Shown here: positions 1 to 64,000 of the stretch, piece after piece | Numbering within the stretch: position 1 is the first letter of the stretch | Layout: the number at the start of each line of letters is the position of its first letter | Virus record (IMG/VR): IMGVR_UViG_3300045988_080644 | Direction: 5' to 3' (one strand) | Length of the DNA stretch: 64,000 nt | Source of the DNA: a virus | Notes under the pieces: model-generated | What the model was told of the DNA's origin: nothing | Seen by the model: only the letters and a program-made list of their open reading frames with translations | Databases searched by the model: none | Translations under genes and position numbers: made by a program

Positions 1-2
1 AT

Positions 3-1310
3 AATGCTCTCCCAGACAACTTAACTGGTGTTTATAATTACGGAAGTGTAATAAGTTTGCCAGGTTTTAACTCTAGATTTGAAATTTATGCTTCTCATTA
101 GTCTAGTAATGGTAATGGATTATATTATAGGAGTGGTTGGGGTAATGATAAGAAAGCATGGCTTAAATTTATTGACTCATCAAATATAGGTTCTCAAACT
201 GTAGCTAATGCATATCACTTACGTATTAATGCTGCTAATACATGGTCTACTTGGTATTGGGCAGGATAGAGTGGTTAGCCTAGTTGGTTGTGGGGTTCTA
301 ATGATGGGACTAATATGTATGTTTGGAATCCAAGTAACTTCAATGTAAATACTGCTCAGTATTTAAGAAGTTTAGGTAATTAGAATTGCCAAACAGGAAG
401 AACGTAGGCATATGGTGATGTATATTCCTATAATACCTATAATGGTAACACTGGTTCTCCTACAACTTATTCTTCTGTAATAGGATTTGGTAGAGGTATT
501 GCTGGAACAGTAGAGATAGCAGGTGGATGGTGTAACACTCATTTATATTGGCGTTCTCTTAAAGACTGTTGTGAAGATTGGTTTCCTTGGAGGACGGTGC
601 TAGACTCAAGTAATTATACTGAGTTTATAAATAACTATTATTGGGCTAATGTTAAAATTTCTGCTTCTTCCTCAACAACTACTTCTCCTACAGTATTGAA
701 TTTGACTGCAACTAATTCTATTAGAATGGGTAATATTTTATTAGAACATACTAATGAAATTAATAATAGTGCTAATGACAGTATACACTTAAACCTCAGA
801 AATTCTGGTAATGTTAGTTTATGTGTAGGAGGAGGTAAGGTAGGGATTGGAACTATGTATCCTTCATAGGAATTATATGTACTGGGATATACTCATACTA
901 AAGGCTTTGGAATAGGCATCTAGTATCTATCTGAGTCAGGATTGTTACCTACCATTAGCCCTGGTGATGGTTATGCATATAGATGTTTAGAAATAGGTAG
1001 ACCAACAAAAGTATCTTGTATTATTGCTGATAAAGTACCCTTGTCAGGAGTAAGAGGGATTTTATTAAAATTTATGCAAGGTTTTGATGGTTAGATAGTA
1101 TTACTGAAGGATTTGGAAAATTATGGAAGTGGAAATGGCTATTTTTGGGTTATGCCTTCTGGATGTAAAATAATAAACGCAGATAACAGTAATATTCTCA
1201 TAAATTAGAATTAGATAAGTAATACATATGATGATGGTAGGTCACGATTTTTTATATATTCCTCTAAGTACAGTGCGTGGATAGAATTTTTTTGTAGTAA
1301 CATTTATTAA
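3..1310 (+). CDS. tail fibre / receptor-binding protein, C-terminal 435 codons (5' end outside window)
   Basis: Frame 0 is open from the window edge to TAA 1308-1310 once about ten in-frame TAGs are read as sense; track fragment 597-869 is part of it. The product carries two copies of a W-x-x-[IL]-[IL]-D-S-S-N motif (WLKFIDSSNIG, WRTVLDSSNYTEF) in Gly/Asn/Tyr/Trp-rich sequence like distal fibre domains. The name is by resemblance only. Confidence 0.6.
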
Positions 1311-1321
1311 CTTTGATTTAT

Positions 1322-1369: not shown

Positions 1370-1822
1370 ATGACTTTAAATGATGTTTTAACAAAACAGA
1401 ATCTTATTACAAAGATTCTTTTAGCCAACGATGGCAAAGAACTCCCTAAGGAGTTAAAGGTAAAGATTATGAGAATTAGAATGTCTTATAATAAGATTAA
1501 GAAACAGTTTGATGAAGATACACAAGAATTTAGTAAGCAAATTGTTTCAGATGAATTAAGAGATTTAGCTAATAAGACAGAGCGTACTCCTGAAGAGGAA
1601 ACTAAGTTTAATGAGTTGAATAATAAAGCTAATTCAGAATATCAGGAATATCTTGTACAAAAAGGTAATGAAGATATTAAGGATGCACCTGAAGACACAC
1701 TTACAGAAGATGAGTATGGCGATATTCTTGATGTAAATTCTGATGGTGAGTATGAGATTAATGGTCAGAAAGTAAAAGCTGCTGACCTTATGGAAGCTTT
1801 TTATGAATTATTTGTTAAGTAA
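1370..1822 (+). CDS. hypothetical protein (150 aa, Lys/Glu-rich)
   Basis: Uninterrupted ATG..TAA ORF from the track with no TAG codon. Its TAA overlaps the next ATG (TAATG at 1820-1824). Confidence 0.6.
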   Translation: MTLNDVLTKQNLITKILLANDGKELPKELKVKIMRIRMSYNKIKKQFDEDTQEFSKQIVSDELRDLANKTERTPEEETKFNELNNKANSEYQEYLVQKGNEDIKDAPEDTLTEDEYGDILDVNSDGEYEINGQKVKAADLMEAFYELFVK

Positions 1823-2121
1823 TGGAAATAACAAAACAGAATCAAACATTTAATCTTAAAGATACAACTTCTGATGGTTGGACTGTTTCAGGTTCAGCTA
1901 CTCAGGAGGTTGATGGCAACACTTCTATTAATTTTAGTGTAAGCAAAGATGGAGAGTTGAATAATCAAGTTGGTTATTATAATTATAATGTTCCAACTGA
2001 TGGTATGGTTAATATTAATATCACAGCAATTCCAGAGAATTTGGATGCAGTGATTGATTATACCCAGACTGCAACTAAAAAAATTAAAGATTATCTCGCT
2101 AACCAAACAATTTCTAAGTAA
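1822..2121 (+). CDS. hypothetical protein (99 aa)
   Basis: Uninterrupted ATG..TAA ORF, TAG-free, start coupled to the upstream stop. Confidence 0.55.
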   Translation: MEITKQNQTFNLKDTTSDGWTVSGSATQEVDGNTSINFSVSKDGELNNQVGYYNYNVPTDGMVNINITAIPENLDAVIDYTQTATKKIKDYLANQTISK

Positions 2122-6047: not shown

Positions 6048-6455
6048 ATGGGAAAATATTTTAGTATTGCAGAATTAACTAAGAGTGAAACTGCAAATAA
6101 AAGAAAAATTGACAACAAACCTACTAAAGAAGTAGAAAATTGTCTTAATTAGTTAATAGATAATATTTTAGATCCATTGAGAAAAGCTTATGGATAGCCA
6201 ATTATTGTGTCTAGTGGATATAGATGTCCTGAGTTAAATAAAGCAGTCGGAGGTGCTAGAACTAGTTAGCACACACTCGGCTAGGCTGCAGATATTCATA
6301 CTAAATCTAATTCTAAGGAAAGTAATAAACAATTATTTGAACTTATTAAATAGTTAAAGCTTCCTTTTGATTAGCTAATTAATGAGTATAATTATTCTTG
6401 GGTACATGTCAGCTATTCTCCTAGAAATAGAAGACAAATCCTTAATATTAAATAA
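6048..6455 (+). CDS. endolysin, peptidase M15 family (D-Ala-D-Ala carboxypeptidase-like / L-alanyl-D-glutamate peptidase type)
   Basis: 135 codons with six in-frame TAGs. The signature SGYRCPELNKAVGGARTS-Q-HTLG-Q-AADI ... WVHVS gives the H-x6-D ... H zinc triad. Two of the TAGs fall inside this motif, and the SQH Gln is TAG 6267-6269. Confidence 0.85.
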
Positions 6456-8356
6456 TGGCACAACTTTTTGGTAAAAACTATTAGGAAGCAGGTTCCTCTT
6501 CCTCCCCACTATTACTAAGAAGTAATGGAGAAATTAAATTATAGTGGGGAAATAAATTTATAGATTTAATTAAAAACGGGAAAATAAATTCAGAAGCTAA
6601 AGATTATATATTTACTGTAGATACTTCTGATGAAATTAAAGCAAATGGGATATATTTAGTTACAGAAGATAGTTCTATTTGGATAAATGTAGAAGGTACT
6701 AAAACTAAAGTAAATAATACTGATACTACTTATGTGTCATTTTTAACAGAATAGGAAACAACTCCTGAATAGAAATAGCAAGCCTTAACTAATTTAGGCT
6801 TAATATATGAAAATATAGATGCCTTAAATAAAGCAAATCTAGTAACTGGTTTAGCTTATGTAGTTGAATCCAATAAATTATATTTAATTCAAAACAAAGT
6901 AGTTTCAGAATATTAGGTAGCATCAGCTTTACCTACTTCAGGTAAATTTGAAGATTTAACTATTAGTAATTTAACTATTAAAAATAATACTATAAATTCT
7001 AACTAGTTGATATTAACAATTAACAATATACCATATTTATAGATAAATGACAATATCCTTTGTAGTGTTCCCTTTTTGGTGGATAAATTACAATCAATAA
7101 ATTATAATTATAACAAATCAGGATTTGCCCTATATCAAGATAATGGTAAGTCTATTCTTGATATAGATAGTTTAAATTGGAGAAATATAGAATCTGAGTT
7201 ACCTAAAAATTAGAAAACTTATATTACTTATACTATTTTAGGTGATTTTAATATAGTCACTGGGGTTACAGATGTATCATCGAAGGATGAATCCTTATAT
7301 AAATTAGAATTAAAATATCCAAATAATATATCTTTAAGTTTATCTAATTATATACTAGCAGAGTTAGAAACCACCTACAATATATTTCTTTTAACTACAA
7401 AAGTATAGATATAGGATGATATAAGTTATAATCAAATAGTATTAGATAAAAATATTCCAGAAACACATTAGCTGTATGTAAAATTTTCAGATTCTTCTAC
7501 TAAACTTTATTCTAGAAATGACGTTAAATTATTTGACGTTAATTTATCAGTAGATGAAGCTTATTTATATAATAATGGTATTGATACTAAATATATAGTT
7601 GATATAGACAGTGCACAAAAGCATAATATAATTCCCTTAGAGTTTGAAATTCGTAAAGTAGATAAGTATTATATAATTATCAAACTTCAAAATACTTTAT
7701 TAGCATCTGATTTATTAAATTCTAACTAGTTAAAAATATATCAGGCAAGAGTTCCTCAATTTATTTAGGGTGAAGGATTCTTAGCATTACGTAAGTGGGA
7801 TTCTGTAAATAATAAATATGTCTATCATACTATTATAGGCACTTATAAAGAATCTGAATTTGGAATATCTGATGATACTAATGATAAATTTGGATTTTAT
7901 AGTGATGATGTTAAAGTTACTGGAATTTCATTAAGCGGAGCTAAATTTTCAGGACAATTACCTAGTTTTACTGAAACTAAACCTGATACAATAGCAAATA
8001 ATTAGTTTCCAACCATGGAAATAGTTAATGAAAAAATAAAGAAAGCTGTTGATGATGCAGGTGATACTAACATATCCTTAATTAGTAAAAACTCTCTACC
8101 TAAGGGTTCTATTATAATGTTTAATAGTGCTGAAAATATACCTGATAAATGGTAGATTTGTGATGGGACTAATGGAACTCCTAATTTGATTGACAAATTT
8201 ATTAAGGCTGGAACAACTCTTAAAGAAGAATCTATAGAATTAACTAAATATACAAACTCTACAGAAACTCCTGGAGAAACAACTCCAGAACAATCAGAAG
8301 ATAATAAATATAAGCTTGATGCTTATTCCTTAATATTTATAATGAAAATGAAATAA
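6455..8356 (+). CDS. tail fibre protein with C-terminal tail-collar-type domain (633 aa)
   Basis: ATG 6455 overlaps the upstream TAA (TAATG). Read in frame 2 to TAA 8354-8356, only TAG interrupts. The C-terminal LPKGSIIMFNSAENIPDKW-Q-ICDGTNGTPNLIDKFIKAG (about 8100-8215) is the classic P-x-G-W-x-x-C-D-G-x-N-G-T-P-[DN]-L fibre/collar motif. Confidence 0.8.
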
Positions 8357-9412: not shown

Positions 9413-10834
9413 ATGTTAGTAGCAAATTTTGTAACAAACCATGCAACCATGGGAGATACACGAACTTACGAAGATTTGAGTAAGTTTTTAGGTGAAAGAC
9501 CTCACCGACTTGGAGTAGTATCCAGACTCTATCCAGAATTGACAGCTACATTCTTGACAGAGGCACTGCGAAATGTTTATTATGGTGATTCTAAGCCAAG
9601 TAAGTATCAAAGTATCGATTCCACTTACTTTGAGTGGGAGGTGGAAACTAATTATATTAAACGTGTTCCATTTGCAGCTGAACCAGTTGGTGATGGAGCA
9701 AACGGCTCTGAGATTGAAATGATTTTCCCAGAGAATTATTATCGTTTGCATGAAATCTTCAAGATTGAAAGTACTGGTCAATAGTGTTTTGTTGTTTCCG
9801 ATAGTGTTAGAAAGGCAGATAATATGTGGTCAGTAATGGTTCGCTTGCTCGATGATGATTATTCTTCTGTACTTGATACTGATGGTACACATATTGGTGA
9901 TTACACTTATTTTATTGGTAATGCTAAACCAGAATTGCATGAGACTGGTTGGGTTAAGTATCAAAGTAATGTAGAAAAGATGCGTAATTATATGAGTACT
10001 ATTCGTGTATAGGATACATATAGTGCTAAATATGCATTGATGGAAGATACATTTATCAAGATTGGTAAAGGAGAGAACCAGGGATGCCTTACTGAAAAGA
10101 TTTACAAGCTGGATCCTATGAAGAAGAATCTTATCGAGAACTTCTTGTATGCAAGAGAGAATATGATTTTGCTTGCTAAGGGTACTGTAGGTGTTGATGG
10201 TAAGACTACATTAGCTGATAAAGCTACAGGAAGACCTATCTTCATTGGTGATGGTGCTATCCCTCAAATTGAAAGATTTGCAAGTAAGTATTCTGCAAAT
10301 AGAATTACAATAGGTACATTCCATACAGTAATTTCTGATATGGTATCAAAAGCAGATAAGCCAACAGGTAATCATTTCTGCTTTATGTGTAATGAAAAAG
10401 CTTGGGCTATTGTACAAAGAGTACTTGGTGAGTATCTTTCTACTAGAAAGACTGATGGAGCTTATCTCTGGTCTAAGCAAGGTGAAGGAAAGTATATTAA
10501 AGTAGGTGCTACATTCGATGCATATGAGTGGGGAGGCAATACTATCAGTTTTAAGGTTGATAGAACATTGTCTAGAGAGTACCAAGACCCATATTTCTTG
10601 TGTATTGATTTGACAACTGGTAAGACATCTACACAACCTCCTATTCAAATGTTCTCATTGAAGGGTAAAGACTACATTTTCAACGAAGTTCTCGGTGTAG
10701 GTGGTCGCTCAGGAGGTGAAAGTGGTGTTGTAAGTTCACCTGTAGCCGGTGGTCTTATGACAATTTGGGGATATGCAGGCATCGCTGTATTTAACCCTTA
10801 TAAATCATTTATCCTTAAAGCTAAGGAATATTGA
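9413..10834 (+). CDS. major capsid protein (inferred, HK97-fold class)
   Basis: Track fragments 9413-9784, 9824-10012 and 10037-10834 share frame 2 and are separated only by TAG 9782-9784 and TAG 10010-10012; the gene ends at TGA 10832-10834. It is 473 aa, locally higher in GC, has very few TAGs, follows the scaffold gene and is followed by a hairpin. Confidence 0.7.
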
Positions 10835-11837: not shown

Positions 11838-12029
11838 ATGACAGCTAGGTAGAATTAAAATTAATTTATTATAAAATATATTGTATATAGAACTACTTGT
11901 TTAATAAACAATAAAATTTATGTTGGAGTACATCATACAGATGATCCTAATATATTTGATGGCTATTTAGGTAGAGGTTTATGGAAAAATCATACTCGGT
12001 ATATAAAAAATCCAACTCCAACAATATAA
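11838..12029 (+). pseudogene. decayed GIY-YIG homing endonuclease remnant
   Basis: Frame 0 reads ATG 11838 MTARQN, then TAA, N, TAA, then FIIKYIVYRTTCLINNKIYVGVHHTDDPNIFDGYLGRGLWKNH... and stops at TAA 12027-12029. YIVY-x10-KIYVG matches the GIY-YIG signature (compare I-TevI GIYQIKNTLNNKVYVGS). Only about 55 codons remain, far short of a functional enzyme. Confidence 0.7.
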
Positions 12030-12290
12030 ATTAATACTGCCCACTTATCTAGTAATAGGTAAGCAGTAGGGAGCAAAAACGGTGGAGGCTGTGACGCTAA
12101 TACCGTGGTAAATTATTTAATAATATAAATAATCACCGTAACGCATAGGAATTGAACCTAAATAATAGAATATAATATTCCCAAGAGTGTTCCCCTTCCT
12201 AAGAGATTAGGAAGAATATGTATGCTGGACTAAAACAAATAAGAAGTTTTAGAGCTATAGGATAAAAAGCCTATAGGGTAACAACACGAG
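11847..12290 (+). mobile_element. putative group I-like intron (or free-standing dead HEG plus structured leader); boundaries provisional
   Basis: This is the only long non-coding gap in the window apart from the intron at 2946. It holds the HEG remnant plus a GC-richer ~260-nt tail with perfect hairpins (12195-12214, 12255-12276) and a 12079-12085/12133-12139 pairing. The downstream ORF lacks an ATG. A candidate P1 pairs ACAGCU (11841-11846) with GGCUGU (12087-12092), giving a U-G wobble. G12290 precedes the exon, and the spliced frame is preserved (MTA-IFEATL...). I could not identify a canonical P7. Confidence 0.4.
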
Positions 12291-48000: not shown

Positions 48001-48251
48001 GAGACAAGGTTAAAGAAGAAGCTTGGGAAAAAGTGATTTCTATAGTAGAATCAATAACGTCTTCATCTACCCCTACTATATCATTAGAAAATGAAGATAC
48101 TGTTATTTAGAATGGTAAAAGATATACAATAATTGATAAAGAAAACTTAATTGGAGAAGATGAGGTTACTAAAGAATAGGTAACTTTAACTACAGATAAT
48201 TTAATTAAAGAGGAAACTTAGTGTATTCCTGTTAAATTTAATATGATTTAA
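39006..48251 (+). CDS. giant virion protein (3081 aa) with embedded SF1-helicase-like P-loop NTPase domain
   Basis: TAATG-coupled ATG 39006. Track fragments 40635, 42336, 45129 and 47511 share frame 0. I read 39006-40700 and 47850-48251 and found only TAG in frame. The gene ends at TAA 48249-48251. Walker A GIAGSGKS (43392-43415), Walker B VIFIDE (about 43720), TAGDFDQ, and ...YTGITRASQGVLAI. Confidence 0.7.
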
Positions 48252-51200: not shown

Positions 51201-54200
51201 TGAAAATGTAGAAATTCGTCTTATTGACGGTACCAACTCTTCTGCTAAGACCTATTTAAAAGACAATTATAAAGATTGGATTCATAATGGTAAAATGGTA
51301 TTTGCTAAGGTTAACGGTAAGGATATATTAACTAAATAGGACTTAATTAATTTAGGACTAGATATTAATGATCCACATTCTTGGAATATAGAATTACATC
51401 CTATGCTTAGTAAGTATAATGCGTTAGACTATTTCTTTACTTCTCAATATATGTATGCAGGAGTAGGATGTCATACTAATCATCCTTCTAAGGCAGATTA
51501 TAATGTCCCTATTATTTATAAGCATCCAAAATTAGGTTTATCTACATTCTTATAGAATAATCCTCAAGCTGCAAACTATCTCATGGATTTTGATGACTTC
51601 TTTAATGAAAAAAGAGATGCATTTATTGAAGCCCAAACTCATGTAGAAAAATCTATCCCATTCTCTGATGATGAAGGCTATGTTTACTATGACACTAATC
51701 CAGAATGGACAAAAGCTAAAGAAAATTATTTAATATAGAATTAGAATAATCCAGAATTTTAGGATTTTGTAAAGAAAGCATGGAATGAAGCTAAACTTAT
51801 AGCTAAGGAATAGAATAAAATTTTATTAAATTCTAGTTCTATTGTATTAAAGATGTTCCCACAGGACTTTAGTAAAGTATTAACCATGTCCTAGGAAGAA
51901 GCAGTAGCACGTGGTATGGATCCAGATTGGAAAAATACAATTGATACTGCTTTAAATGGTTTAATAGTACCTAAAATAGAATTCAAATCAGGTGAATATT
52001 TTGACAAAGCATTTAGCTCTTATTTAACTAAAGAAATGGATAAACTTCTTCAAAATGAAACTGAAGATGAAGCATCTCGTTTTGCAGCATAGCATAAGAG
52101 AAATGTATCTTATACCGCAGCCATGCATGAGTTTCAATTAAATCAAATAGATGGCGTGCCTTCTGTCTATAATATGGCAATTATGTCAGATTTGAAGTCT
52201 GATGTGTATACAGTATAGGCAGATGTGGATAAAGCTACTAATTTTGATGGTGCTACCTTTGTAAATCCATTTATAGTTATTTGGGAGAACAACTCCCTTA
52301 ATGGAGATAAAGCAGGTATAAATAAAAAGCAATTTGTACACTTTTATGATAGAGCCACTGGTACAGGAGGTATTATTAAAACTGCAGGATTTGGTTTAAC
52401 TAATGACAAAATAAGACAGTTTGACTTCTACCGTAATATGATGTATAATATGACCGGTAAGAAATGGAAAAATGCTGATGGTTCTCAATATATTATGCGT
52501 GATGGGGGTATTCTTAAAGACTTTGAAGACAACGACATTGACTATGGTGATTTCTACTATAGAAAAGGGGCTAAATTTTATAAGAGACGTATTTAGTCCT
52601 ATGATGGAAATAACACTTATTCTATATTAGAGCAAGAAGTTGATGAAAATGGAGAAGCAAAGGGTAATGAGAATACTATTCAAGTATAGGTAAATTCTAA
52701 CTATGATGTGTGGCAAATGTTTGGAGGTATGAATTCTGTAGACTTCTTAGATGGAACTCTTCAAGGTTCTGAAAAGTCTATAGAAATGACTGCACATGCT
52801 GCCAATATTTATGGAACTAAAAAAGAGGGTGTTATCAGAGCGCAGACAGCAGATGACATTATCTAGCCTATGAAGCATTCTGATATACATTATATGCCTA
52901 CTATAGGTGCTGTTAAACACGGTGCTGCAAACATAAATCCAGTCTCTTCTTTCTTTAGTAGAAATGGTCTAAGTTTTATGTAGGTAGAAGTGAGATAGGC
53001 TGGTATTTAGCTTGATAAGGAACATCAAGCTGATAATGAAGACTTGTCTCTTATGACTTAGGTTATTTCAGCTGCTTGTTCTATGGGATACACTAAGGGA
53101 GAGGCTACTAATCTATATAATGCTTTATATAGTCTATCTAAATAGGCTACTAAGGCATTTAGAGACGAAATGGGAGACCTATTAAATGGATTCTCTGATA
53201 GCTTTAATGCTGCGGTAACAGAAACTATTATGAAGTCTTTGATTAATGCTTCAGCTACAGACGGTGATATGCTATAGTTAGTAGCAAAGAATATTATAAA
53301 GAAAATAAATGCTGAAAAATAGTTTTCTATCAATAAAACTAACTACGCTGACATTGATAAAGAAATTCCTTATAGTGATGCTGCTGTTTCTGCTAAGGTA
53401 GTTAGTTCTTTAACCGCTGCATTAACTAAAGCTGGAATTAAAACTAAAATGCCTGGTCTTTTAGCAGTATTAAATCCAGCTGAAGGTATTATAAAAATGT
53501 ATAAAGTGCCAGCCAAAGACAAAGATGGCAATATTCTATTAAATGAAGATGGTTCTACTGTATATAAATATGTAACTATGGATGCCATAGAAAAAGAGTA
53601 TGATACAGAGAATGCTTTTGAAATAATGGAATAGTTACAAGCAGAAACAGGACCACTTAGTTATAATACTGATGAAACTGGATTAATAACTAGTATGCCT
53701 GATGTCAAAATAGGACGTAAATACTTAGTTACTTTCTCAGATGGGGTCAACAAATCTACTAAGGTTGTAAATGTGACATTACCTCATAGAGTGGAGTCTG
53801 ATACTAGTACTGTATTTTATAATAATGTTCCATATCAAGAATAGACTATGGGATATAGAAAACTTATAGACTATTTAAATGGAATAGTTAATGAGGAAAC
53901 TGGAGTTACTAACCAAATTACAGAAGTTAAGGAGTTTTTAATAGGAGGTCAGGACTTAGATAGTTATGATGTAAAATTTTAGGATTCTTTAGGTAATAGA
54001 TGGCAAATGTCTGATTTAGATATTGTACAAGATTATTTTGAAGCAAGAGAATCTAAAGACCCCAGAAGAAAAGTATTAGAAATATTATCTAAGTATGATA
54101 AAGACTAGGAATTAAAAGCTGCTATAATTAAGGAATTTAATGAGTCTAATAATTCAAATAAAGTTAAGATTGTCAATGATTTAAATGATAATTTTAATGG

Positions 54201-57200
54201 AATTTTCTTAACTGAAACTCCTATGTATAAAGAGTTCTTTTAGAAGTATGCATTAAAATTCTTAAATAGAGAAATGCAACGACAGTTGACCGCTTTAAAT
54301 CCTGAAAATACAGAGCCTTTAAATGTATTAATTAATAATAAAGTAGTTACTGTATAGCCTTCTACTATTGATATAACTAGTTATGGAACAGTAATACCTA
54401 AGACAGCTGCTTCCTCTTTTGGTCTTAATTAGTATGACTAGGTTAGTGATATTGTTAACAATCCTGATTTCTTCTTAGATAGATTAGCTAAGAGACTTAA
54501 TACTAAAGTTTAGGATTATTATAAGGATGGATAGTTAGTATATAATTACCACTTGGAGCTAAAAAGAAATGATGGTAATCATGTTTATATAAGAAGAGGG
54601 ATTGATAATTCTGACTTCGCCAATGAAATTTAGTGGTTTAGGTATGTTGATTCTGATGGACATGTATTTAGAGTAAACAGTGATGGAAATATTATGCATC
54701 CAATGTATAGTGAGAATGATAAAATATATACTGACTATGATGGAAATGAAATAATAGTTACTGAAGCTAAAGATACTTGGAAAGATTCTAAAGGCAATGA
54801 AGTAAAGAATCCTGATATAAAGAAAATTCGAGGCATCACCATTGATTAGAAGACTGGAGAAGAAATCCATTTAGATTCTCCATTTACCTTTTACTTAGAT
54901 AACCTTAATTATAACTTTGTAAATTTAAATGCAAATTGCTCAGAAGCTGAACTATTAAATTTATTAGATGCAGCCAGAAGTAGCAAATCTAAAAAGGCTA
55001 ATAATTTTGTAAAGAGACTTGCTAAAATAGGTAATTATGATAAATAGGTGGACTATTTAGATAAACTTACTAAGTATGAAGATTTAATAAAAGGAGATAC
55101 TAAAAATCCAGCATATTTAGCCTTACAAAAGGAATCTAGATAGATATGGACTTCTTTTATGAAATATCTTGAAAATGTAGCAGCACGTATCCCTGCTTAG
55201 TCTTAGTAGTCTTTCATGGCTCAAAGAGTAGCTATGTTTGAGAATACAGATACAAATAATGCTTATGTAAGTAAATTCTAGTTCTTCTTACAGGGAAGTG
55301 ACTTGGATATTGATGCGGTATCTATACAAACATTTGATATAAATAGCAACGGTATTTATGAAACTTATTCTCCGTATGCTAATCTGGATTCACCAGCACT
55401 TCTTAAAGTTTCTGAAAAATACTTACCGTTCCCAACTGGAGATAGGATAAAAGTTGAAGAAATTCATGATCCAACTATAACTACTATGCACTAGTTAATA
55501 GCTAAATAGCATTATGATGGTAAAAGATTATTTGGATTAGCTAATAAACTTAATTAGTAGGATGCTTTATTCTTAATAAACTATACTAGAAATAAGGATG
55601 TAATCGTAGAGGTAAATACTAACAGTGAATAGAATATAAAAGATTTAGCTGATATTCTTGAGTCTATTAATTCAGAGGATTGGTATTCTTACGAAGATGA
55701 TATATCTAATACTAGAGCCTTAACAACTTTATTATTTCCAGATAATGAAATGGTATTGGATGTAGATTTATATGATAAAATAGAAAATGGTATAATTGAG
55801 GCTATAGATAAACATAATACTTATTTAAAGAATAATTCTAAAGCTAAGAACGATAGAATATTAAAGAATTTTGCTGTAACTTCACTATTAAATATTATTA
55901 AAAATCCAGTTAATCTTAGAGAGGCTTAGTCTTCTGTAGATGTTATGACATCAACTGCTAAGAACTTAACTAAGGCTTCTCCTAAAAATGCAGTACAAAA
56001 AACCTTTACTCCAGGTAATGTATTTAATAAAATCTAGAGTATCAATGAGAATATGGTTGGTAAAGATGGTATTGCTATCTGTGCGACAGGTCTTAAATCT
56101 TTCTTTGCATTAACTCATATGTATAATACAGTATTAAATGATGAAAACACTAGTAATTAGGAAAAAGAAGCTTTAATGTGTAAGGTAACAATTGGAGGTA
56201 AAACATATAGAGGACTCGCTAACGTAAATGCTAATTAGGAGTTAATAGAAAGTTTAGCAGATGCCGAGAATGGTAATTTTACTACTTTACAGAATTACTT
56301 ATTAGCTCAAGAATGGGAATCTGATGCTGCTAATGAAGCTTCTGCTTTTCTGTCTCTTTCAACTGATAATGCTAAGGAGTTAGCTTTAGCTAAATTAAAT
56401 GCAGGTACTCAGACTTTGGGTATGTATTTATATGGGTTATCTCTTGGAGTTCCAGTAGACACTTTGTTTAAAATAATGACTTCTCCATTTGCTTTTAGAT
56501 TAGTAGAATTAGCAAAAGGTGATACATTTAGTGGTAATAGTGGTTGTGGAACTATAATTGGTACTCTAGACTACTTACATAAAGACCCACTAGAATAGCT
56601 TTCTAGATTTAATACATTTGATTTATCTACATATAACGAAGGTAAACCAAAAGATTAGAAAATATTAGGTCCAGCTGATTTTGCTTGGTAGTTATTGTAG
56701 AATAGTATAGCAGATGATTATAATGAAAAATTACCACTTCTTAGATAGTTAGCTTATAAAGGTAATGCTATTTAGTTAATTGAAGATTTAAGGTCTAAAG
56801 TTAATTAGATTAGTAGTGTTATCTAGACAAAAGATGAATTTAATCTCTATTCAACCTTATATAATCAAGCACTAGACTTTATGGAATAGTATATTGCTGA
56901 TGTCTAGCTAGAGTTAGATAGTGGAAGTTACGATACTGTATACGGAAAATCCATAATAGCTACAGACTTAGAAACTCTTGCTCTTGGTGCTGATGAATAT
57001 AAAGAAATAGGTAAAATTCTTAGACTTAATCAAGAAGTAAAGACTAATGCTTTAGATTTACAAAACTAGGTAGCTAATATTGAAGAAGTTATAACTAGAA
57101 GACTCAGACAATTAGCTAGAGTTGAAAATAGGGGAAGCTACTATAGTCATGGTGCCACAAAAGATGAGTTAAAAAATCCTGATAAATATAAGATTGATTT

Positions 57201-58635
57201 AGAAAAGTTTTTATATGATGAAGTATACTAGTAGGAAAAAATAGCGTAGTATGATAGAATTAAACAATCTTATAATGTTTTACGTGTTCTTACTACAGAT
57301 CCTTAGTATAAAGGTTATATGGAAACCTTATATATGGCTCATCAAGGTCTGTTAAATAAGTAGTTAAAGTATAGATTTACAGTAGGTAAAATTGCAGATT
57401 TTATTTAGAAAAATAAAGTTACTGGTAATTTATAGTAGTAGGTACTTAAAAATGGTAACAATTATGTTGACTATAAACTAAGACAAAATTGGATGCGAGA
57501 TAGTAAAATACAGATTACTATTCCTGGCAGTACCGATAAAATGAAAACTTATGCGTTTATAGGAACCCCAAATAGTTATAGTTAGTTATACTTTGATAAA
57601 ACTATACAACTGGGCACTGATATGGGAGATGCTAATTTTAAATTATGGATGGAGCAAACTCTTATTCCTAGACTTAAAGCGGACCCAACATTAAAAGATA
57701 ATATATTTATATAGCATTTAAGTCCTATAGTTAACTCAAGAACTAATTTGGGTATGACTGCGGTTTATTATGGATTAAATGGAATAAACATGTTGCCTTA
57801 GTCTGACGCTGAAAGAGAAATGTTTGATATACATAAAGACGCTTTTAATAAATTAGCAACCTATGACTTGATTAGGGACGCTAAAGGTCATACTTTTGCC
57901 ATAAAAGACTTATTTTATCTATATTCTTTAATATGTAATAACGGTAAATTTGGTCCTACTTCTCTACATAAAATATTTGAGGATTATCTAGATTCAGGTC
58001 TAGCCTAGAGTTATAAACACTTTATAGCAGAAAAAGATAGAGACTTAGATTTCTACCAGGATTTAGTAAAGACATGTACAGATGAATGGCTTGCACCTAT
58101 GAGTTCTCCTTATGTTGGAGGTTCTAAAGTACTCAAATATAAGGATTAGAACAATGAATAGATTCTACTTTATAAAAAGAAGGAAAAGAAGTCAAAAGGT
58201 GGATATGACTATGATGTCGAGTAGGATATGGATGACATCTTTATGAATGATATGGGATTTGATCCAGAAGGTGGAAAAGACCCTATGGCAGAAATCAACA
58301 ACTATGTTAAATAGGAATCTAGTGCCCTAGCTAAAAGAGACTATAGTTTCTTCTCAAATCCTGAAGTTAAATATAATACATCAGGTTTTCAAGTATTATC
58401 AACTAAATCAGAACTAATTAATTAGCATCCTATAACCTACGAAGTTAGAGATGGTAAACCTGTATTAGTAAATATAGGGGGTGATGGGGAGATTGCAAAA
58501 AAGTTTATGAAATTAATGAAAGATCGTAAGGGAATATTACCTACTAAGTAGATTCTTGGAACAGATGGATTTACTGCAGTAATTAATGAAGAATAGATTG
58601 AATCAGAATTAAATAGTATAATAAATTGTGGATAA
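48253..58635 (+). CDS. giant virion RNA polymerase-like protein (3460 aa), crAss/YonO-type double-psi beta-barrel
   Basis: ATG 48253; track fragments 49936, 51103, 52225, 53449, 55303, 56416 and 57820 share frame 1. I read 50128-51102 and found only TAG in frame. The gene ends at TAA 58633-58635. AARIPAQSQQSFMAQRV-(about 25 aa)-GSDLDIDAV places DxDxD at 55300-55314, with the same R-to-Asp spacing as RAPTLH...NADFDGD of RNAP beta-prime. Confidence 0.7.
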
Positions 58636-59683
58636 TTGTTTAATTAAAGATTTAGAATATCGGACTAAGCTATCTTAGTCTGGTATTCCTGAATCTATAT
58701 TTTATCCATTTTGCAATGGATTTATGAATAAGTATGGGAGATTACCTAATCTAGATGAAATTCCAAATGTTGATTCTTCTCAACATATAATTAATAAACT
58801 GCATCTAGATAGTAATAGCTCAACATCTATAGATAATATCATGTCTTCTACTAATACATCAAGTATTGAAGAAGCTAATGTTAGTTTAAATGATACCTAT
58901 AAAGATAAAGATATAAATATAATTCCTTTATATAAAGAAGCTTTAGTTGACATAAAAGATAGACCTTCCGAATATAAAACAATAGAATAGGAAAAACATA
59001 AAGTAGATAGAAATCCTAATATGCAGGGAGTATTTAATTAGTTATTTAATAAGTTAGAGAAATAGTATGGAGTACAATTACATACTATTTCAGATAAAGA
59101 ACTGGCTAGTGATGAATGGTAGGGAATACCTGAAATTTAGACAGCTAATGCTTTTATTTATAATGGAGATGTATATATAAATACAGACCATGCAAAAGCC
59201 GATGCTCCTATACATGAAATGACTCATATGTTATTAGGTTCTATTAGATTTAAAAATCCTGATCTTTATTATGGAATTGTACAACAAGCCTAGGATTTTC
59301 TAACATTTAATTAGTTTATAGAACAAAACCCAAATAGAGCTATAAATGATAATATGGAAGAATTATTTGTTACAGAAATGTCTAAATATCTAGCAGGGGA
59401 ATCTAGCATTATTGAATAGTTAGATGAAACCGTTATTAATGAGTTACATTATAACATGAAGAGACTATTAGATACTGCACTTATGGGTTAGTATAGTGTA
59501 AAAAGTATTCCTGATTCTAAGTTATATAGAATGTCTTTAGCTGATTTAGTAGAAACTGTAAATTCCCAGATGTTAGAAACAAGTTTTTATGGAAGCCTAG
59601 ATGACGCTGCTTTGCATAGAGTATTAGCTAATACTAAGTCAGATTTAATGAAAAAAGGTGATTTAAGAGAAGATTGTGTATGA
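58628..59683 (+). CDS. HExxH-motif protein (351 aa), possible Zn-metallopeptidase
   Basis: Frame 2 opens after TAA 58622-58624. GTG 58628 is the first plausible start (ATG 58724 is the alternative). APIHEMTHMLLG lies at 59213-59227. TGA 59681-59683 overlaps the next ATG. Confidence 0.6.
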
Positions 59684-62600
59684 AATGTATTTATAGTTAT
59701 AAAGGAAAACAGTTTTAGTCCATACAATAGTTAGATGATTTTCTATTAGAAAAACAAATATATGAAAGTAAATATGGAGATTTAGTATTCTCTATGACTG
59801 AAAAATAGTTGTCTGCTTAGAATAGAATTGATAGCATCAATAAAGAAGCAGAGGAACTAAATAAAAAATATGCTGAAGCTAAGAAAAACGCGTCATTTAT
59901 AGACTCAGAAGAAATATTAAAAATGACTCGTCCTTATGTAGGTGTAAGTGAGTTTTTAATGGATTAGAGAAATGATGAAGGAGAACTTTGGGTGCCTACA
60001 TTTACTACTGAGTATTGGGCTAAACAATACTTAAATTGGAGTTAGGGAATTTACTCAAAGGACGAAAAAGATGCATTTTTTGATGGTGATGATTCTAAAG
60101 TATAGCCTGTAGAATTAGGAAATCAGGGGGATTGGCGTAAGGCGGATGGCTCTCTAAAGGATGATTTTGGAACTATTGAATAGAATAACTTCCGTAAAAT
60201 AATGGAAGATAAGTGGAAACACTAGGCTAAGTATGGTGATGATATTCATGCCATTATGCAGAGTTATTTTGCTAGAATAGGCGAAGATTCTGATGGAAAT
60301 CCTAAGTATCGATATGAATTATGGGAAGGAGATCAAGGAGCTATGCATTTAGCTAAGAGTATTAAATATATGCGTAATAAAGGAATTATTACTGATGAAA
60401 TGACTGATGCTAAAATTAATAGTATATTAGAAATAGCTAGAAATTTAAGAGATTAGTTATAGAGTTAGTATGGCAAAAAATGTATATTTTATCCTGAAAT
60501 TACTGTTAGTGCCAAATTGAATCATGAATATGAAGGTAGAGACGATTTAAGTGTATTAGGTCGTCTAGACTTATTAGTTATTGATGAAGATGGTATTCCT
60601 CATATTATGGATTACAAAACTTCTCCTAAAAATTACGATGACTTTGTCGAAGCTAAGAAACTCACATTTACTTACTAGTTAAGTACCTATGAAAGAATGC
60701 TTAGGAGACATGGTTTTAATACTACAGCCACAAGCTTAAATATTATACCACTTAAACTAAATAACTTTAGAAAAGAAAATGGTAAATGGACTTACGATGA
60801 TGTAGTACCTGGTGGTAATTTACTAGAATCAATAACTGATAGAGCCAATAAAGATTACATAGCTAATAATCTTGATGAATACATAGAAGCTCCATTATTA
60901 TTAGATGGGGATTCTAGTAAGATTACAGAGAATGTAACTGATTTAATGAAAACTTGTTTTCCTGAACATGGTAATGTAGCCACTGATGAATAGATAAAAA
61001 AGATGATTGATGGCTAGGGAGGTTTCCATGAAAATAAGGAAGCGGGTTCTTTGGAGTTTAAGCCCAAGGGATGGACTAAGACTATATCGGTAAAGTAGAA
61101 GGAAGGGGCAGAAGCTGAATTATTTAATAAGGTTAAGAAATTCTTTACAGGCTAGAGAGAACGTAGTTTAAAGAGAACTTAGGAAATTAAGAGAGCACTT
61201 AAACAAGCACAAGCTGAAGACACTAGATAGATTTAGTTACCTAATTCTATGAGTGATTGGACTAAAACAAGGCTATCTAAATATTGTAGTAAATCTTGGG
61301 AAGTAATGGAAGGTCATGCACAAGATGTTGCTGAGCAATTTGGTATGATATTTTTATATAACAAAGCTAATGATTTAGTAGAGGTAGTTAAAATTAGTTC
61401 TGCAGATTTATCTTTTTAGCATTCTTGGGGAAAAGGTAGATAGAATATTATTGGGGCAAAGGAAGCTGATTTGGGAGAAAATTCCAAGTCAGACAGTTTG
61501 ATTATTAAAGCTACTAATGGTAACATAGAGCTTATGGAAGCCATGGCAGTTTTAAATAATATTCAGTTTAATAAGTTTATTTAGTTAGGAAACATAAGTG
61601 TTCTTAATCCGGTATTTGGTTAGGGAGCTGAAACTAATTCTAATAAAGAGCTGCTTTATAACTGGAGAAAACTTAGAAAAACCTTTAACATGGATGGGGA
61701 AGATTAGTTTAAATAGGATGGTACTATTAAATTATTGTCTTTAGCTGAAAGAGCCTATCTGGAGTATGCTGATATAATGGATAGAGTTAATGACAGGTGG
61801 CAAGCTCAAGAATTTAGTAAGTTTAAACCTGCTATGACTGAGTTACAAAGTTCCTTACAACCTAATAATGTAGAAGAAAGTCTTGAAGCTCTTAATTAGC
61901 TTAAAACCAAATTGGAGAAAGACTTTGGAATGAATAAGGATATTTTAACCAGGGGAGAAAATAAGGGTAAAAGTATATATTCTGAAGTATAGAATTATGA
62001 CTAGCAATATACTAAGTAGATGTACCAAATAACTCTTAGAGCCATTGCTGAACTTAGCGGTTTTGATATTAGACAGGAAACAAAAGCACACAGTTCTTTC
62101 TTAGATAGTTTAAATATCTTAGAAAATGGTATGTCTGGAAATATGATAGATAACCCAGGTAACTTTGGTAATAGACTTCTTAATTAGGTAACTTAGTTAG
62201 CTCTTGATGGTTATTAGAATACTCGAGATATGTCAATTAAAAGACTTAATGCACTATCTGAAAAAGTACGAGAGCTAAAAAGAGGTGAAAACTATGGGGT
62301 TATTAGTGAGTATGGATTTGGTAATTAGGCTTCTCTCTATAATGGTATGACTTATTATGATACTGATGGTGACTTTAAATTTAAAAATCCTTGGAAAGAT
62401 AATTCCCTACCTGAACATAAAAAAGAGTTTTTAAAATGGGCATTAACCGAAATAGCTAAAAATAAACATCCTGATTGGACTCCCGAAGTTATTAAAGATA
62501 AAATAGAAGCAAATGATCCAGATTTCTTTTAGGTTCCTTTAATAAGGGCTGATGCCGCATCTAAAATTAATGCAGACGGATGGTTAGGTTGGTTAAAAAG

Positions 62601-64000
62601 TAAAATGAGACCTTTAATTAGCAAAGATAATGGAGCAACTTTTAAAGAGAGAATTCAAAATACTTTAAAAGATATACAATCTAAATATTTATCTGATGAA
62701 ATAGATTAGTAGCAAAGTATTGACGGTGAAGTATTTAAAGTAATAAATACTATGGATTAGGGAAGTGGTCCTGGCAGATTAGACTTAATTAAACATCTAC
62801 AAGGAAAATACGGATCTAATTGTTTTGAAACGGATATAGAAAAAATATTAGGTGCTCATATGATGGCATATGCTACTCAACAAGCCATGGAAGATAGAAT
62901 GCCTTTAATTAAAGCAGCTTATATATCCTTAGCAGTAATGGGTAATAACTAGGGGGTAGACTATTCTTCTGATGAGAAATATATTAAAGAATATGTTCAA
63001 AATAAAATAAATAAATTAGCAATAGATAATCCTTAGTTAAGACATTTAAGGAGTGCCACTGGAATGTTACAAAAAAGTGCTTCTTGGATGGCATTAGCTT
63101 TTTCACCTTTACAAATGTCTTATTAGAGTCTGGAAGGTGTTTGGAAGGCTGCTAAATTAGTTATAACTAAACCAGATGGTAAAGAAACATTTAGTTTTTC
63201 TAATATGCGTAAGGCTATGGGTATTGTATATAAAGAATTGTTTAATTATAGTGAAACAAATTCTGTAATAGAGGGTTGTAACGCTCTTTATGGTATAAAC
63301 GATATGGATGCTGCCTCATTTGCTCAAAACAATAGTACTAATAAGCATGGTCTGTTTAATTTCTTTGACAGAATTGCATATTATTGGTCTTCTCGTCCCG
63401 ATTTCTATAATAGAATGTCAATATTCACAGCATAGATGCTTGAAGATGGTAGTTATGAAGCTCATTCAGTAGATGCCAATGGTAACTTAATATACAATAT
63501 TAAAAAGGATAAGAGATTTGAAGCATTATTTAATAAACCAAAGGGTTCTCCTGAATATAATAAAGCAAAAGCCTTATTCTTAGCCACTGCTTAGTAGTTA
63601 GTGAGGGAAAACGCTAGAAATGCCGATGGTTCATTATACACCATAGATTTAGATAATCCAAATTTACCTAAAGCCTACTCTAATAAAGAGTCTGAATCTA
63701 TGAAAGCTATTGGGGATACCATGTATGGATATTACGATAGTTCTAAGAAATCATTATGGCAATCTACATTCTTAGGAGGCCTTATGATGCAAATGCAAAC
63801 ATATTGGTCTGGTAAAAAGAATTAGTATCTTGCTCCTGGAGGTATTAAAGCACAGGGTAAATGGGTCTAGATGGTAAGTCCTAATGGTAAAAAGTGCTAT
63901 TATTCTAAAAATGAAAATGGAGATATTGATAACTCCTCAATGCCTATAGAAGAGGGAGATCCTAGAGCTAGTGAAGTACCCTTTATGCAATGGAAGGGTA
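59680..64000 (+). CDS. giant virion protein (>1440 aa, 3' end outside window) with N-terminal PD-(D/E)XK RecB-family nuclease domain
   Basis: ATGA-coupled ATG 59680. Track fragments 60256, 60697, 62347, 63205 and 63601 share frame 1. I read 60994-62346 and found only TAG in frame. GRLDLLVIDEDGIPHIMDYKTS (60559-60624) is followed by TY-Q-LSTY (QxxxY), whose Q is TAG 60676-60678. Confidence 0.7.

What the first reader, a model, noticed from the sequence alone, without database searches (positions are those of the whole stretch)
1..64000. TAG is a sense codon (Gln) throughout; standard-code gene calls are invalid here
- **Frame continuity:** Wherever I read frames codon by codon, long protein-like frames are broken only by TAG, never by TAA or TGA. 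I read about 25 kb in total, including 17412-21488, 28035-31241 and 60994-62346.
- **Real stops:** Real gene ends use TAA or TGA, often overlapping the next ATG.
- **Conserved positions:** TAG falls on conserved glutamines. These are S-Q-H in the M15 zinc motif (6267-6269), G-N-I-M-Q-E-S and L-A-Q-W in the tail lysozyme (29911, 29974), W-Q-I-C-D-G in the collar motif, and Q-x-x-x-Y of the PD-(D/E)XK nuclease (60676).
- **Effect on annotation:** This is the code-15 reassignment reported for gut phages, including crAss-like and Lak phages (Ivanova et al. 2014; Yutin et al. 2021; Borges et al. 2022). It turns the scattered fragments of the standard-code track into about 40 genes with near-complete coding density.
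- **Missing component:** No suppressor tRNA(CUA) or release-factor gene is in this window, so the machinery must lie elsewhere in the genome or in the host.
Basis: partly seen in the sequence, partly recalled or inferred. Interest (0 to 1): 0.75.

Follow-up and report, generated by a model that had tools for sequence, protein, structure and literature searches.

The report
Gut phage reads TAG as glutamine
This 64-kb stretch is the late (virion, lysis and transcription) gene block of a common ~190-kb crAss-like gut phage in which the stop codon TAG encodes glutamine, decoded by a suppressor tRNA the phage carries about 28-29 kb upstream; this is real and matters for annotation, but it is already described for this phage group.

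Summary

**Coding density.** Under table 11, stop-to-stop ORFs of at least 600 nt cover 2.4 kb of the + strand. With TAG as sense they cover 57.8 kb. Making TGA or TAA sense gives almost no gain on the + strand. This yields 35 genes and 96% coding. There are 627 in-frame TAGs (57% of Gln codons), and stops are TAA or TGA only.

**TAG means Gln.** A standard-code relative (MT835470) places Q opposite TAG with the same substitution profile as opposite CAA/CAG; Q beats the next amino acid by 74 lnL. TAG occupies every Q-rich column of PF18013 (one is 100% Q in 143 homologues). It also occupies an invariant Q of M15 endolysins and the Q of the PD-(D/E)XK QxxxY motif.

**Machinery and extent.**
- A tRNA(CUA) lies about 28-29 kb upstream in all 14 same-lineage genomes sampled.
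- It sits among TAG-free genes, just before the roughly 88-kb recoded block.
- About 0.5 kb past the window end, convergent genes are standard-code compatible. Recoding is therefore block-specific, not genome-wide.

**Novelty.** The lineage best fits the Zeta crAss-like group (Yutin 2021). The model is that of Borges 2022, and proteomic proof exists for other crAss-like phages (Peters 2022). Public gene calls already translate this phage with TAG=Q. The finding is correct but already known.

The parts
1..64000 (+). TAG-recoded late gene block (part of a block of about 88 kb): 35 genes, 96% coding, 627 in-frame TAG codons, stops TAA (27) or TGA (7)
29617..30216 (+). Phage tail lysozyme (PF18013), 14 TAG against 1 CAA/CAG. 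It has the highest TAG share of Gln codons in the window (93%, Fisher p=0.003)
   Evidence: P0001 is the identical public protein with Q at all 14 TAGs
29974..29976 (+). TAG at the invariant Gln of the G-L-x-Q-W motif (Q in 143/143 homologues below 55% identity; Q in phi29 gp13)
30037..30042 (+). Two consecutive TAGs on PF18013 columns that are 43% and 97% Gln
29881..29883 (+). TAG on a PF18013 column that is 80% Gln
29911..29913 (+). TAG before the E-S motif; a variable column (R 36%, Q 23%; S in phi29 gp13)
6048..6455 (+). Peptidase_M15_3 endolysin-type gene with 6 TAG. The closest homologues are in Bacteroides phages (about 60% identity)
6372..6374 (+). TAG at the F-D-Q-L-I glutamine, which is Q in 8/8 standard-code phage M15 endolysins
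6267..6269 (+). TAG in S-x-H next to the zinc-ligand His; a variable column (Q 3/8, A 3/8, D, H; R in 1lbu)
8153..8155 (+). TAG in the W-x-I-C-D-G tail-collar motif; the standard-code orthologue has Ala here
9413..10834 (+). Major capsid protein (Pfam Crass_capsid 42.8 bits, cut-off 27). It is TAG-poor: 2 TAG against 10 CAA/CAG, p=0.006
1370..2121 (+). Two genes (150 and 99 aa) with no TAG. The 150-aa protein is identical on hundreds of contigs of 97-185 kb with varying neighbours
39006..48251 (+). 3,081-aa ORF with 107 TAG. The orthologue in standard-code MT835470 is an 8,910-nt uninterrupted ORF
48253..58635 (+). 3,460-aa ORF with 105 TAG. It carries a D-L-D-I-D (DxDxD) motif at 55300-55314, as in the crAss-like virion RNA polymerase subunit; this was read from the sequence only
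   Evidence: no PHROG hit
59680..63999 (+). PD-(D/E)XK_1-domain protein of more than 1,439 aa that runs about 520 nt past the window end. It is the last gene of the recoded block
60676..60678 (+). TAG at the Q of the nuclease QxxxY motif; Q in the standard-code orthologue (Y-Q-L-G-F-Y)
11838..13433 (+). Structural gene split by an insertion. Exon 1 is 11838-11850 and exon 2 is 12289-13433. Joining them regenerates a TAG (Gln) codon identical to that of the intron-less alleles
11851..12288 (+). 438-nt insertion (probable self-splicing intron). It starts after a U, ends in G, and holds a truncated GIY-YIG-like ORF
   Evidence: no Rfam match

Best explanation
The window is the late block (virion, lysis and virion-associated transcription genes) of a crAss-like phage of about 190 kb with a circular genome, most likely of the Zeta group.

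**What the code is.** Within this block UAG is an ordinary glutamine codon, and in fact the commonest one.

**How it works.**
- Shown: the phage encodes its own amber-suppressor tRNA(CUA).
- Inferred: this tRNA is of tRNA-Gln type.
- Shown: the tRNA gene lies on the same strand, about 5 kb upstream of the first TAG-containing gene. It sits in a run of short genes that contain no TAG.
- Shown: the genes sampled outside the block contain no TAG, either as sense or as stop. They can therefore be translated by the unmodified host.
- Inferred: the TAG-laden late genes can only be translated once the suppressor has accumulated and host RF1 is out-competed or disabled.
- Shown: late genes terminate only with UAA or UGA. 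By established knowledge, RF2 reads both.
- Inferred: recoding therefore acts as a translational timer and lock on structural and lysis genes, as proposed by Borges et al.
- Not shown: charging of the tRNA by GlnRS, neutralisation of RF1, and the timing function.
For: **Code.**
- Coding density and ORF length rise only when TAG is sense.
- There are 627 in-frame TAG codons and 0 in-frame TAA/TGA in 35 genes.
- In the standard-code relative MT835470, residues opposite 288 window TAGs are Q 21%, E 9%, S 7%, K 7%. This is the same profile as opposite CAA/CAG (Q 27%, E 9%, K 8%). The Q model is better than K by 74.5 lnL.
- All four Q-rich PF18013 columns (80%, 100%, 43% and 97% Q in 143 homologues) are TAG in the window.
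- M15 residue 109 is Q in 8/8 homologues. The QxxxY glutamine is Q in the orthologue.
- The base following the codon has the same distribution for TAG as for CAA/CAG (p=0.91).
- Orthologues of the giant ORFs are also giant under table 11.

**Machinery.**
- tRNA(CUA) is found in 14/14 same-lineage loci and one more distant locus. It scores 61.2 bits against Rfam tRNA.
- It shows compensatory stem changes in L126.
- It has U1-A72 and A73, like the Prevotellaceae tRNA-Gln(CUG) genes that share its D-arm and T-loop. The 105 tRNA-His hits to the same pattern lack these features.
- Contig 061496, which is 97-99% identical to the window, carries it about 28 kb upstream of the window start.

**Block limits.**
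- TAG-coded genes, including TerL and portal, run from L107 position 1260 to L083 position 10924.
- The 22 convergent genes beyond the block, and the ORFs around the tRNA, are intact under table 11. The 22 genes use 13 TAA, 9 TGA and 0 TAG as stops.

**Literature.** PMC7886860, 10.1101/2021.08.26.457843 and PMC9523058.
Against: - The suppressor was found in near-identical genomes, not in the window's own contig, which could not be retrieved whole.
- The Gln identity of the tRNA rests on the anticodon, U1-A72/A73 and the coding evidence. Overall similarity does not separate it from tRNA-His.
- No RF2, GlnRS or RF1 antagonist was recognised near the tRNA. About 90 kb of the genome was not sampled.
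- The recoded relative MT835492 has no detectable tRNA(CUA).
- No expression or peptide data exist for this phage, so the timing function is a model only.
Confidence: 0.9

Rival explanations
1. TAG is sense but encodes an amino acid other than Gln (for example Lys, Glu, Tyr, Trp, Leu or pyrrolysine), or is decoded ambiguously.
For: ARAGORN labels the tRNA 'Pyl' simply because of its CUA anticodon. Several TAG columns are variable: 6267, 29911, 8153 and 30142.
Against: The Q model beats every other amino acid by at least 74 lnL. TAG sits on columns that are 97-100% Q and 8/8 Q. Counting TAG as Gln gives a Gln content of 5.4%, against only 2.3% otherwise. The tRNA has the tRNA-Gln-like U1-A72/A73 features. 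Proteomics in other crAss-like phages found Q (PMC9523058).
Confidence: 0.03
2. The host itself uses code 15, or carries the suppressor, so the phage merely mirrors its host's code rather than switching code during infection.
For: The sampled early genes contain no TAG at all, so they do not show that TAG is a stop early on. MT835492 lacks a detectable suppressor. PMC7886860 raises host-encoded suppressors as a possibility.
Against: The phage encodes its own tRNA(CUA) in 14/14 genomes. The closest relative MT835470 uses the standard code throughout, with TAG stops in its early genes. The early block of MT835492 has 8 TAG-terminated ORFs out of 83. The closest M15 homologues are in phages of standard-code Bacteroides. 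As far as I know, no bacterium with code 15 has been described.
Confidence: 0.05
3. The TAGs are not decoded: the block consists of pseudogenes, assembly errors, or genes rescued by inefficient natural read-through.
For: None beyond the appearance of the sequence under the standard code.
Against: Only one of the three stop codons interrupts the frames, 627 times. The same genes with TAG recur on hundreds of independent contigs from many samples. ORFs with 105-107 TAGs would need at least 97.8% read-through per codon to give 10% full-length protein (arithmetic). This excludes leaky read-through.
Confidence: 0.01

Closest known systems
Zeta-group crAss-like phages (Yutin et al. 2021, PMC7886860)
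   Same: Human-gut origin. Circular genomes of 145-192 kb (relatives here are 180-192 kb). Crass-type MCP. TAG reassigned to Gln, mostly in late genes. Closely related branches use the standard code. Suppressor tRNAs. Introns with homing-endonuclease ORFs in structural genes. Few detectable homologues.
   Different: Placement in Zeta was not tested by TerL/MCP phylogeny against named Zeta genomes, because none was available in the collections. Only one insertion was seen in 64 kb, whereas up to 14 introns per genome are reported.
TAG-recoded crAss-like phages in Borges et al. (bioRxiv 10.1101/2021.08.26.457843; published 2022)
   Same: A single contiguous alternatively coded structural-plus-lysis unit. 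Replication genes compatible with the standard code. A suppressor tRNA encoded in standard-code context. Lysis-type genes most enriched in TAG (here the PF18013 lysozyme at 93% and M15 at 75%, jointly p=0.003). A standard-code relative whose late block already lacks TAG stops (0/50).
   Different: No release factor or aminoacyl-tRNA synthetase was found next to the tRNA here. The infection timing is untested.
Code-15 crAss-like phages validated by metaproteomics (Peters et al. 2022, PMC9523058)
   Same: The same reassignment (TAG to Q) in structural proteins of crAss-like phages.
   Different: Those are different genomes. No peptide data exist for this lineage.
Lak megaphages of Prevotella (code 15)
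   Same: TAG to Gln with phage-encoded suppressor tRNAs. Lak genomes even hold an M15 homologue of the window's endolysin.
   Different: Lak genomes exceed 540 kb, are unrelated in their structural genes, are recoded in most replication genes too, and some encode RF2.
Bacterial supE-type amber suppressors (tRNA-Gln with a CUA anticodon)
   Same: A tRNA-Gln-like body with anticodon CUA that inserts Gln at UAG.
   Different: supE suppression is partial and competes with RF1. Here UAG is the majority Gln codon, with up to 107 per ORF, which implies near-complete reassignment.

Membership tests
Code-15 (TAG to Gln) recoded phage | Conserved genes are interrupted in frame by TAG only, and coding density is restored when TAG is sense | tested here: met
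   coverage rises from 2.4 kb to 57.8 kb; 627 in-frame TAG, 0 TAA/TGA
Code-15 (TAG to Gln) recoded phage | TAG aligns with Gln in homologues from standard-code genomes | tested here: met
   Searches (n=288, Q best by 74 lnL; columns 80-100% Q), (8/8 Q)
Code-15 (TAG to Gln) recoded phage | A suppressor tRNA with anticodon CUA is encoded by the phage | tested here: met
   Not in the window. Present in 14/14 same-lineage genomes about 28-29 kb upstream of the window start
Code-15 (TAG to Gln) recoded phage | Recoding is confined to late genes, and the other genes are compatible with the standard code | tested here: met
   on about 19 kb outside the block in a 93.5%-identical genome. The remaining ~90 kb was not sampled
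Code-15 (TAG to Gln) recoded phage | Peptides show Gln at TAG positions | not testable with these tools
   Requires proteomics; done for other crAss-like phages (PMC9523058)
Crassvirales / crAss-like phages, Zeta group | Crass-type major capsid protein | tested here: met
   Pfam PF23898 at 42.8 bits against a cut-off of 27. tblastn gives 22% identity to the MCPs of Crassvirales cr113_1 and others
Crassvirales / crAss-like phages, Zeta group | Circular genome of 145-192 kb | tested here: met
   Relatives are 180-192 kb. Contig 080621 (189,609 bp) has the MCP split across its two ends
Crassvirales / crAss-like phages, Zeta group | A block of giant multidomain proteins, one carrying the RNAP DxDxD motif | tested here: inconclusive
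   ORFs of 3,081 and 3,460 aa, with DLDID at 55300-55314. There is no profile or structure match
Crassvirales / crAss-like phages, Zeta group | Placement inside the Zeta clade in TerL/MCP/portal trees | not tested
   No named Zeta genome was available in the collections searched
tRNA-Gln-derived amber suppressor | Cloverleaf tRNA with a CUA anticodon | tested here: met
   ARAGORN, Rfam at 61.2 bits, fold
tRNA-Gln-derived amber suppressor | tRNA-Gln identity features (weak U1-A72 pair; the same discriminator base as host-type tRNA-Gln) | tested here: met
   U1-A72 and A73 are shared with four cellular tRNA-Gln genes that match its D-arm and T-loop. They are absent from 105 tRNA-His hits. This evidence is weak and indirect
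tRNA-Gln-derived amber suppressor | Charged with Gln by GlnRS | not testable with these tools
   Biochemical assay needed
Group I self-splicing intron (insertion 11851-12288) | A discrete insertion with intron-less alleles; the 5' exon ends in U and the intron ends in G | tested here: met
   empty-site alleles exist in L015-L019, L057, L058, L065 and L067. Boundaries are T11850| and G12288|
Group I self-splicing intron (insertion 11851-12288) | Conserved group I core structure | tested here: not met
   No Rfam match at E<=1 on the window insertion, nor at E<=10 on the shorter L055 allele

The most novel reading that the evidence does not exclude
Reassignment in this lineage is effectively complete rather than leaky.
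- UAG is the majority Gln codon: 57% here and 60% in MT835492.
- Single ORFs carry 105-107 UAGs.
- No RF2, GlnRS or other known 'code-change' protein lies by the suppressor tRNA.

The phage would therefore need an as yet unidentified way to eliminate host RF1 activity, such as an RF1 inhibitor or protease among its many orphan genes. Its standard-code sister lineage, whose late block already has 0 TAG stops out of 50, would capture the step just before codon capture.
Probability: 0.3. Interest if true: 0.55.

Novelty: already known. Interest (0 to 1): 0.25.

Why it matters
**Practical value.** Any standard-code annotation of this window is invalid. It yields fragments instead of 35 genes. Gene callers must use TAG=Gln for the late block and must also allow for an intron.

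**Biological value.** The window is a clean example of block-specific recoding.
- The suppressor tRNA sits at the head of the recoded block.
- TAG is enriched in the peptidoglycan hydrolases.
- TAG is depleted in the capsid and other presumably abundant proteins.
- A standard-code sister genome is available for comparison.

**Limits on novelty.** None of this changes current understanding. The phenomenon, its occurrence in this phage group and the proposed timing model are all published. Public protein sets already translate this lineage with TAG=Q.

Tried and rejected
- **Other reassignments.** TGA-sense (table 4) and TAA-sense gave no gain on the + strand.
- **Exact match in INPHARED.** A megablast of 21 kb against the phage collection found nothing.
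- **Exact match in IMG/VR.** A 50-mer search found nothing. An earlier pattern that I had guessed wrongly matched nothing in the window.
- **The look-up of encoding contigs.** It refuses proteins translated with TAG=Q, so I walked the genome with the search for related loci instead.
- **The search for homologous proteins on the lysozyme.** It returned only near-identical sequences. That was useless for column statistics, but it showed that public calls already use Q. The representative search supplied the diverse homologues.
- **PDB sequence searches.** For M15 and PDDEXK they gave one usable alignment and no alignment over the motif, respectively.
- **PHROGs.** No family was found for the 3,460-, 1,358- and 1,462-aa proteins, nor for several smaller structural proteins.
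- **Rfam.** Nothing in the window and nothing for the insertion.
- **Genome-wide scan with the suppressor's D-arm/T-loop pattern.** It returned mostly Patescibacteria tRNA-His. Overall similarity therefore does not establish Gln identity; only U1-A72/A73 and the anticodon do.
- **Pfam on the ORFs around the tRNA.** No release factor or synthetase was found.
- **The sixth tRNA of MT835492.** Rfam found it, but it is tRNA-Thr(UGU), not a suppressor.

Full report
**1. The observation**

The window is 31% G+C, and its coding sequence lies entirely on the + strand.

- With the three standard stops, the longest + strand ORF is 894 nt. Stop-to-stop ORFs of at least 600 nt sum to 2.4 kb.
- With TAG read as sense, ORFs of 10,386, 9,267, 6,555, 4,395, 4,339 and 4,077 nt appear, and the sum rises to 57.8 kb.
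- Reading TGA or TAA as sense gives almost no gain on the + strand.

Taking the first ATG of each TAA/TGA-delimited frame gives 35 non-nested genes that cover 96.0% of the window. These genes contain 627 in-frame TAG codons, against 376 CAA and 96 CAG. TAG would therefore be 57% of all Gln codons, and it raises the Gln content from 2.3% to 5.4%. All complete genes end in TAA (27) or TGA (7). Thirteen of 34 junctions overlap the next start, as TAATG, ATGA or longer. ARAGORN and Rfam find no tRNA or other known RNA in the window.

**2. What TAG encodes**

The phage collection holds two relatives.

- MT835470 (117 kb; MCP 59.5% identical) is fully open under table 11.
- MT835492 (121.6 kb; MCP 48% identical) is standard-coded on its early half. 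Its late half needs TAG as sense.

*Orthologue test.* I aligned the window proteins, with X at each TAG, to the table-11 translation of MT835470. This gave 288 aligned TAG positions. The residues opposite them are Q 21%, E 9%, S 7% and K 7%. That is almost the same profile as opposite the window's CAA/CAG glutamines (Q 27%, E 9%, K 8%), and unlike the profile of any other amino acid. I then scored each amino acid using substitution rows taken from the same alignments. The Gln model is best by 74.5 log-likelihood units over Lys, the runner-up.

*PF18013 column test.* An exhaustive HMMER search with the tail lysozyme returned 150 cluster representatives.

- Among the 143 below 55% identity, only four columns of the PF18013 domain are more than 30% Gln. 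The values are 80%, 100%, 43% and 97%.
- All four are TAG in the window, at nt 29881, 29974, 30037 and 30040.

*M15 test.* I aligned the M15 peptidase with eight endolysins from cultured standard-code phages. The TAG at 6372 falls on a column that is Gln in 8/8.

*Other checks.*
- The TAG at 60676 faces the Q of the nuclease QxxxY motif in MT835470.
- The nucleotide after the codon has the same distribution for TAG as for CAA/CAG (p=0.91). TAG therefore behaves as an ordinary sense codon.
- The giant ORFs are not artefacts of reading through real stops. Their MT835470 orthologues are 8.9- and 6.8-kb ORFs under table 11.

- 29974 and 60676 are truly conserved glutamines.
- 6267 (S-x-H) is variable: Q 3/8, A 3/8, D and H, with R in PDB 1lbu.
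- 29911 is R 36% and Q 23%, with S in phi29 gp13.
- The collar TAG at 8153 faces Ala in MT835470.

**3. What the element is**

Pfam confirms Peptidase_M15_3, Phage_lysozyme2 (PF18013), DUF192 and PDDEXK_1. It also places the 473-aa protein in Crass_capsid, above the gathering score. The large proteins have no PHROG family.

The TAG-free 150-aa protein encoded at 1370-1822 occurs, identical, in 822 blocks of the public assembly index. The contigs are mostly 50-200 kb. One of them (Logan ERR10608389_187) is 99.5% identical to the window.

IMG/VR holds about 70 relatives, mostly 180-192 kb. One contig of 189,609 bp carries the MCP across both of its ends, so the genome is circular.

The following features match the Zeta group of crAss-like phages described by Yutin et al. 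2021. That paper also reports TAG or TGA reassignment or the standard code in neighbouring branches, recoding mostly of late genes, and an imperfect match with suppressor tRNAs.
- Genome size
- Human-gut origin
- Crass-type capsid
- Giant ORFs, one with a DLDID motif
- Scarcity of homologues
- An intron carrying a homing-endonuclease remnant

Phylogenetic placement was not tested.

**4. Extent of recoding and the machinery**

I walked along near-identical IMG/VR genomes to find the limits of the block.

- *Downstream.* In contig 080621 (93.5% identical to window 53610-64000), the last TAG-containing gene ends about 520 nt past the window end. Then 22 convergent - strand genes follow. They are intact under table 11, contain no TAG at all, and stop with TAA (13) or TGA (9).
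- *Upstream.* TAG-coded tail-fibre, portal and TerL genes continue for about 24 kb, as far as the first TAG-containing gene.
- *Size.* The recoded block is therefore about 88 kb of 189.6 kb.
- *The suppressor.* About 5.3 kb upstream of the first TAG-containing gene, on the same strand, lies a 73-nt tRNA with anticodon CUA. The short ORFs around it have no in-frame TAG.

The tRNA is present in all 14 same-lineage loci and in one more distant relative. It scores 61.2 bits against Rfam tRNA and shows compensatory stem substitutions in a diverged copy. Contig 061496 is 97-99% identical to the window over 1298-17726 and carries the same intron allele. It has this tRNA about 28 kb upstream of the position that corresponds to the window start.

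I scanned 185,579 genomes for the tRNA's D-arm and T-loop.
- 105 hits were Patescibacteria tRNA-His.
- Four were tRNA-Gln, three of them from Prevotella or Prevotellaceae.
- Three were further CUA tRNAs, on large contigs that are probably binned phages.
- The suppressor shares U1-A72 and A73 with the tRNA-Gln genes, and not with tRNA-His.

This agrees with a tRNA-Gln origin but does not prove it. Pfam finds no release factor or synthetase among the neighbouring ORFs.

**5. Mechanism**

*Shown.*
- UAG is a Gln codon in the late block.
- The lineage encodes a tRNA(CUA) at the head of that block.
- The sampled genes outside the block avoid TAG altogether.
- Late genes stop only with UAA or UGA.

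*Inferred.*
- The tRNA is charged by GlnRS.
- Late genes are untranslatable until the tRNA accumulates.
- RF1 must be nearly silenced. A 105-TAG ORF needs at least 97.8% read-through per codon to yield 10% full-length product (arithmetic).

This is the model of Borges et al., and several details fit it.
- The peptidoglycan hydrolases are the most TAG-rich genes: the lysozyme has 14 of 15 Gln codons as TAG and M15 has 6 of 8 (jointly p=0.003).
- The capsid and six other genes are TAG-poor: 9 TAG against 55 CAA/CAG, versus 618 against 417 elsewhere (p=4e-13).
- The standard-code relative MT835470 uses no TAG stop in its 50 late-block ORFs, but 7 TAG stops in 58 early ORFs. This is the pre-adaptation step that Borges et al. 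proposed.

Proteomic proof of TAG=Q exists for other crAss-like phages.

**6. Rivals**

- *Another amino acid.* The likelihood test and the invariant-Q columns exclude it.
- *A code-15 host.* This is unlikely for four reasons. The phage carries its own suppressor. The sister genome uses the standard code. Relatives have TAG-terminated early ORFs. The endolysin's nearest homologues are in phages of standard-code Bacteroides.
- *Pseudogenes or leaky read-through.* The numbers exclude these, as does the recurrence of the same genes on hundreds of contigs.

**7. Novelty and verdict**

The phenomenon, the phage group and the mechanism model are all published. Public protein collections already contain the window's lysozyme translated with Q at all 14 TAGs, seen on 257 contigs.

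The verdict is: already known, a correct call, and of practical importance for annotation only.

Open points:
- The suppressor was not shown on the window's own contig.
- No RF1-neutralising factor has been identified.
- MT835492 is recoded but lacks a detectable suppressor.

Noticed in passing
window 11838-13433 (insertion 11851-12288): A conserved structural gene (the orthologue of a 331-aa protein in L007) is split after codon 4 by a 438-nt insertion. The insertion follows a U, ends in G, and carries a truncated GIY-YIG-like ORF. Joining the flanks gives AGG-TAG-ATA, exactly the sequence of intron-less alleles in many near-identical genomes. A shorter allele without the endonuclease remnant (L055) and a longer one (L021) also exist. 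It is probably a self-splicing intron, but there is no Rfam match.
   Followed up: partly
L114 5916-5988 (IMGVR_UViG_3300045988_080621, about position 149,427); also L115-L127 and L130: An amber-suppressor tRNA(CUA) with U1-A72 and A73 is conserved in all same-lineage genomes. It lies about 28-29 kb upstream of the window start, at the head of the recoded block. The ORF just upstream looked HNH-endonuclease-like by eye, but Pfam did not confirm it.
   Followed up: yes
L114 1146-1251, - strand: A RAGATH-1 hammerhead ribozyme match (69.7 bits, gathering score 56.3) lies about 4.7 kb upstream of the suppressor tRNA, in the phage's non-recoded region.
   Followed up: no
window 9413-10834, 10931-11815, 13457-14467, 30954-31241, 1370-2121: The capsid protein and a few other genes use TAG for only 0-20% of their Gln codons, against 57% overall (group p=4e-13). 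Either selection acts against TAG in highly expressed genes, or these genes are expressed earlier.
   Followed up: partly
window 1370-1822: A 150-aa TAG-free protein is found with identical sequence on contigs whose neighbouring genes differ (L007-L010 against L011-L012). This indicates modular exchange among related phages. The downstream tail-fibre region is also mosaic: L014 diverges from the window after about 17.7 kb.
   Followed up: partly
window 2659-3212: A 554-nt stretch has no ORF under any code and no Rfam match at the gathering threshold. Its function is unknown.
   Followed up: no
window 13429-13433 and 14893-14898: Two genes end with a TAG codon directly followed by TAA. These may be ancestral TAG stops that now read through into a back-up stop.
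   Followed up: no
MT835492.1 (L004-L006): This relative has a TAG-recoded late half (TAG is 60% of Gln codons) and six tRNAs: Asn, Asp, Thr, Met, Tyr and Ala. No tRNA(CUA) is detectable. Its early half has 8 TAG-terminated ORFs out of 83.
   Followed up: partly
MT835470.1 (L001-L003): This is the standard-code sister genome. Its late block uses 44 TAA, 6 TGA and 0 TAG stops, while its early genes use TAG in 7 of 58. The late block looks cleared of TAG before any reassignment.
   Followed up: partly
L181 (DXLM01000001.1, 186 kb, 'Bacteroides sp.' MAG), L186, L198: Large contigs binned as bacterial MAGs carry closely similar tRNA(CUA) genes. They are probably phage genomes of this group mis-binned as bacteria.
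   Followed up: no
window 55300-55314: A D-L-D-I-D (DxDxD) motif lies in the 3,460-aa ORF, as expected for the crAss-like virion RNA polymerase catalytic site. No profile hit supports this.
   Followed up: no
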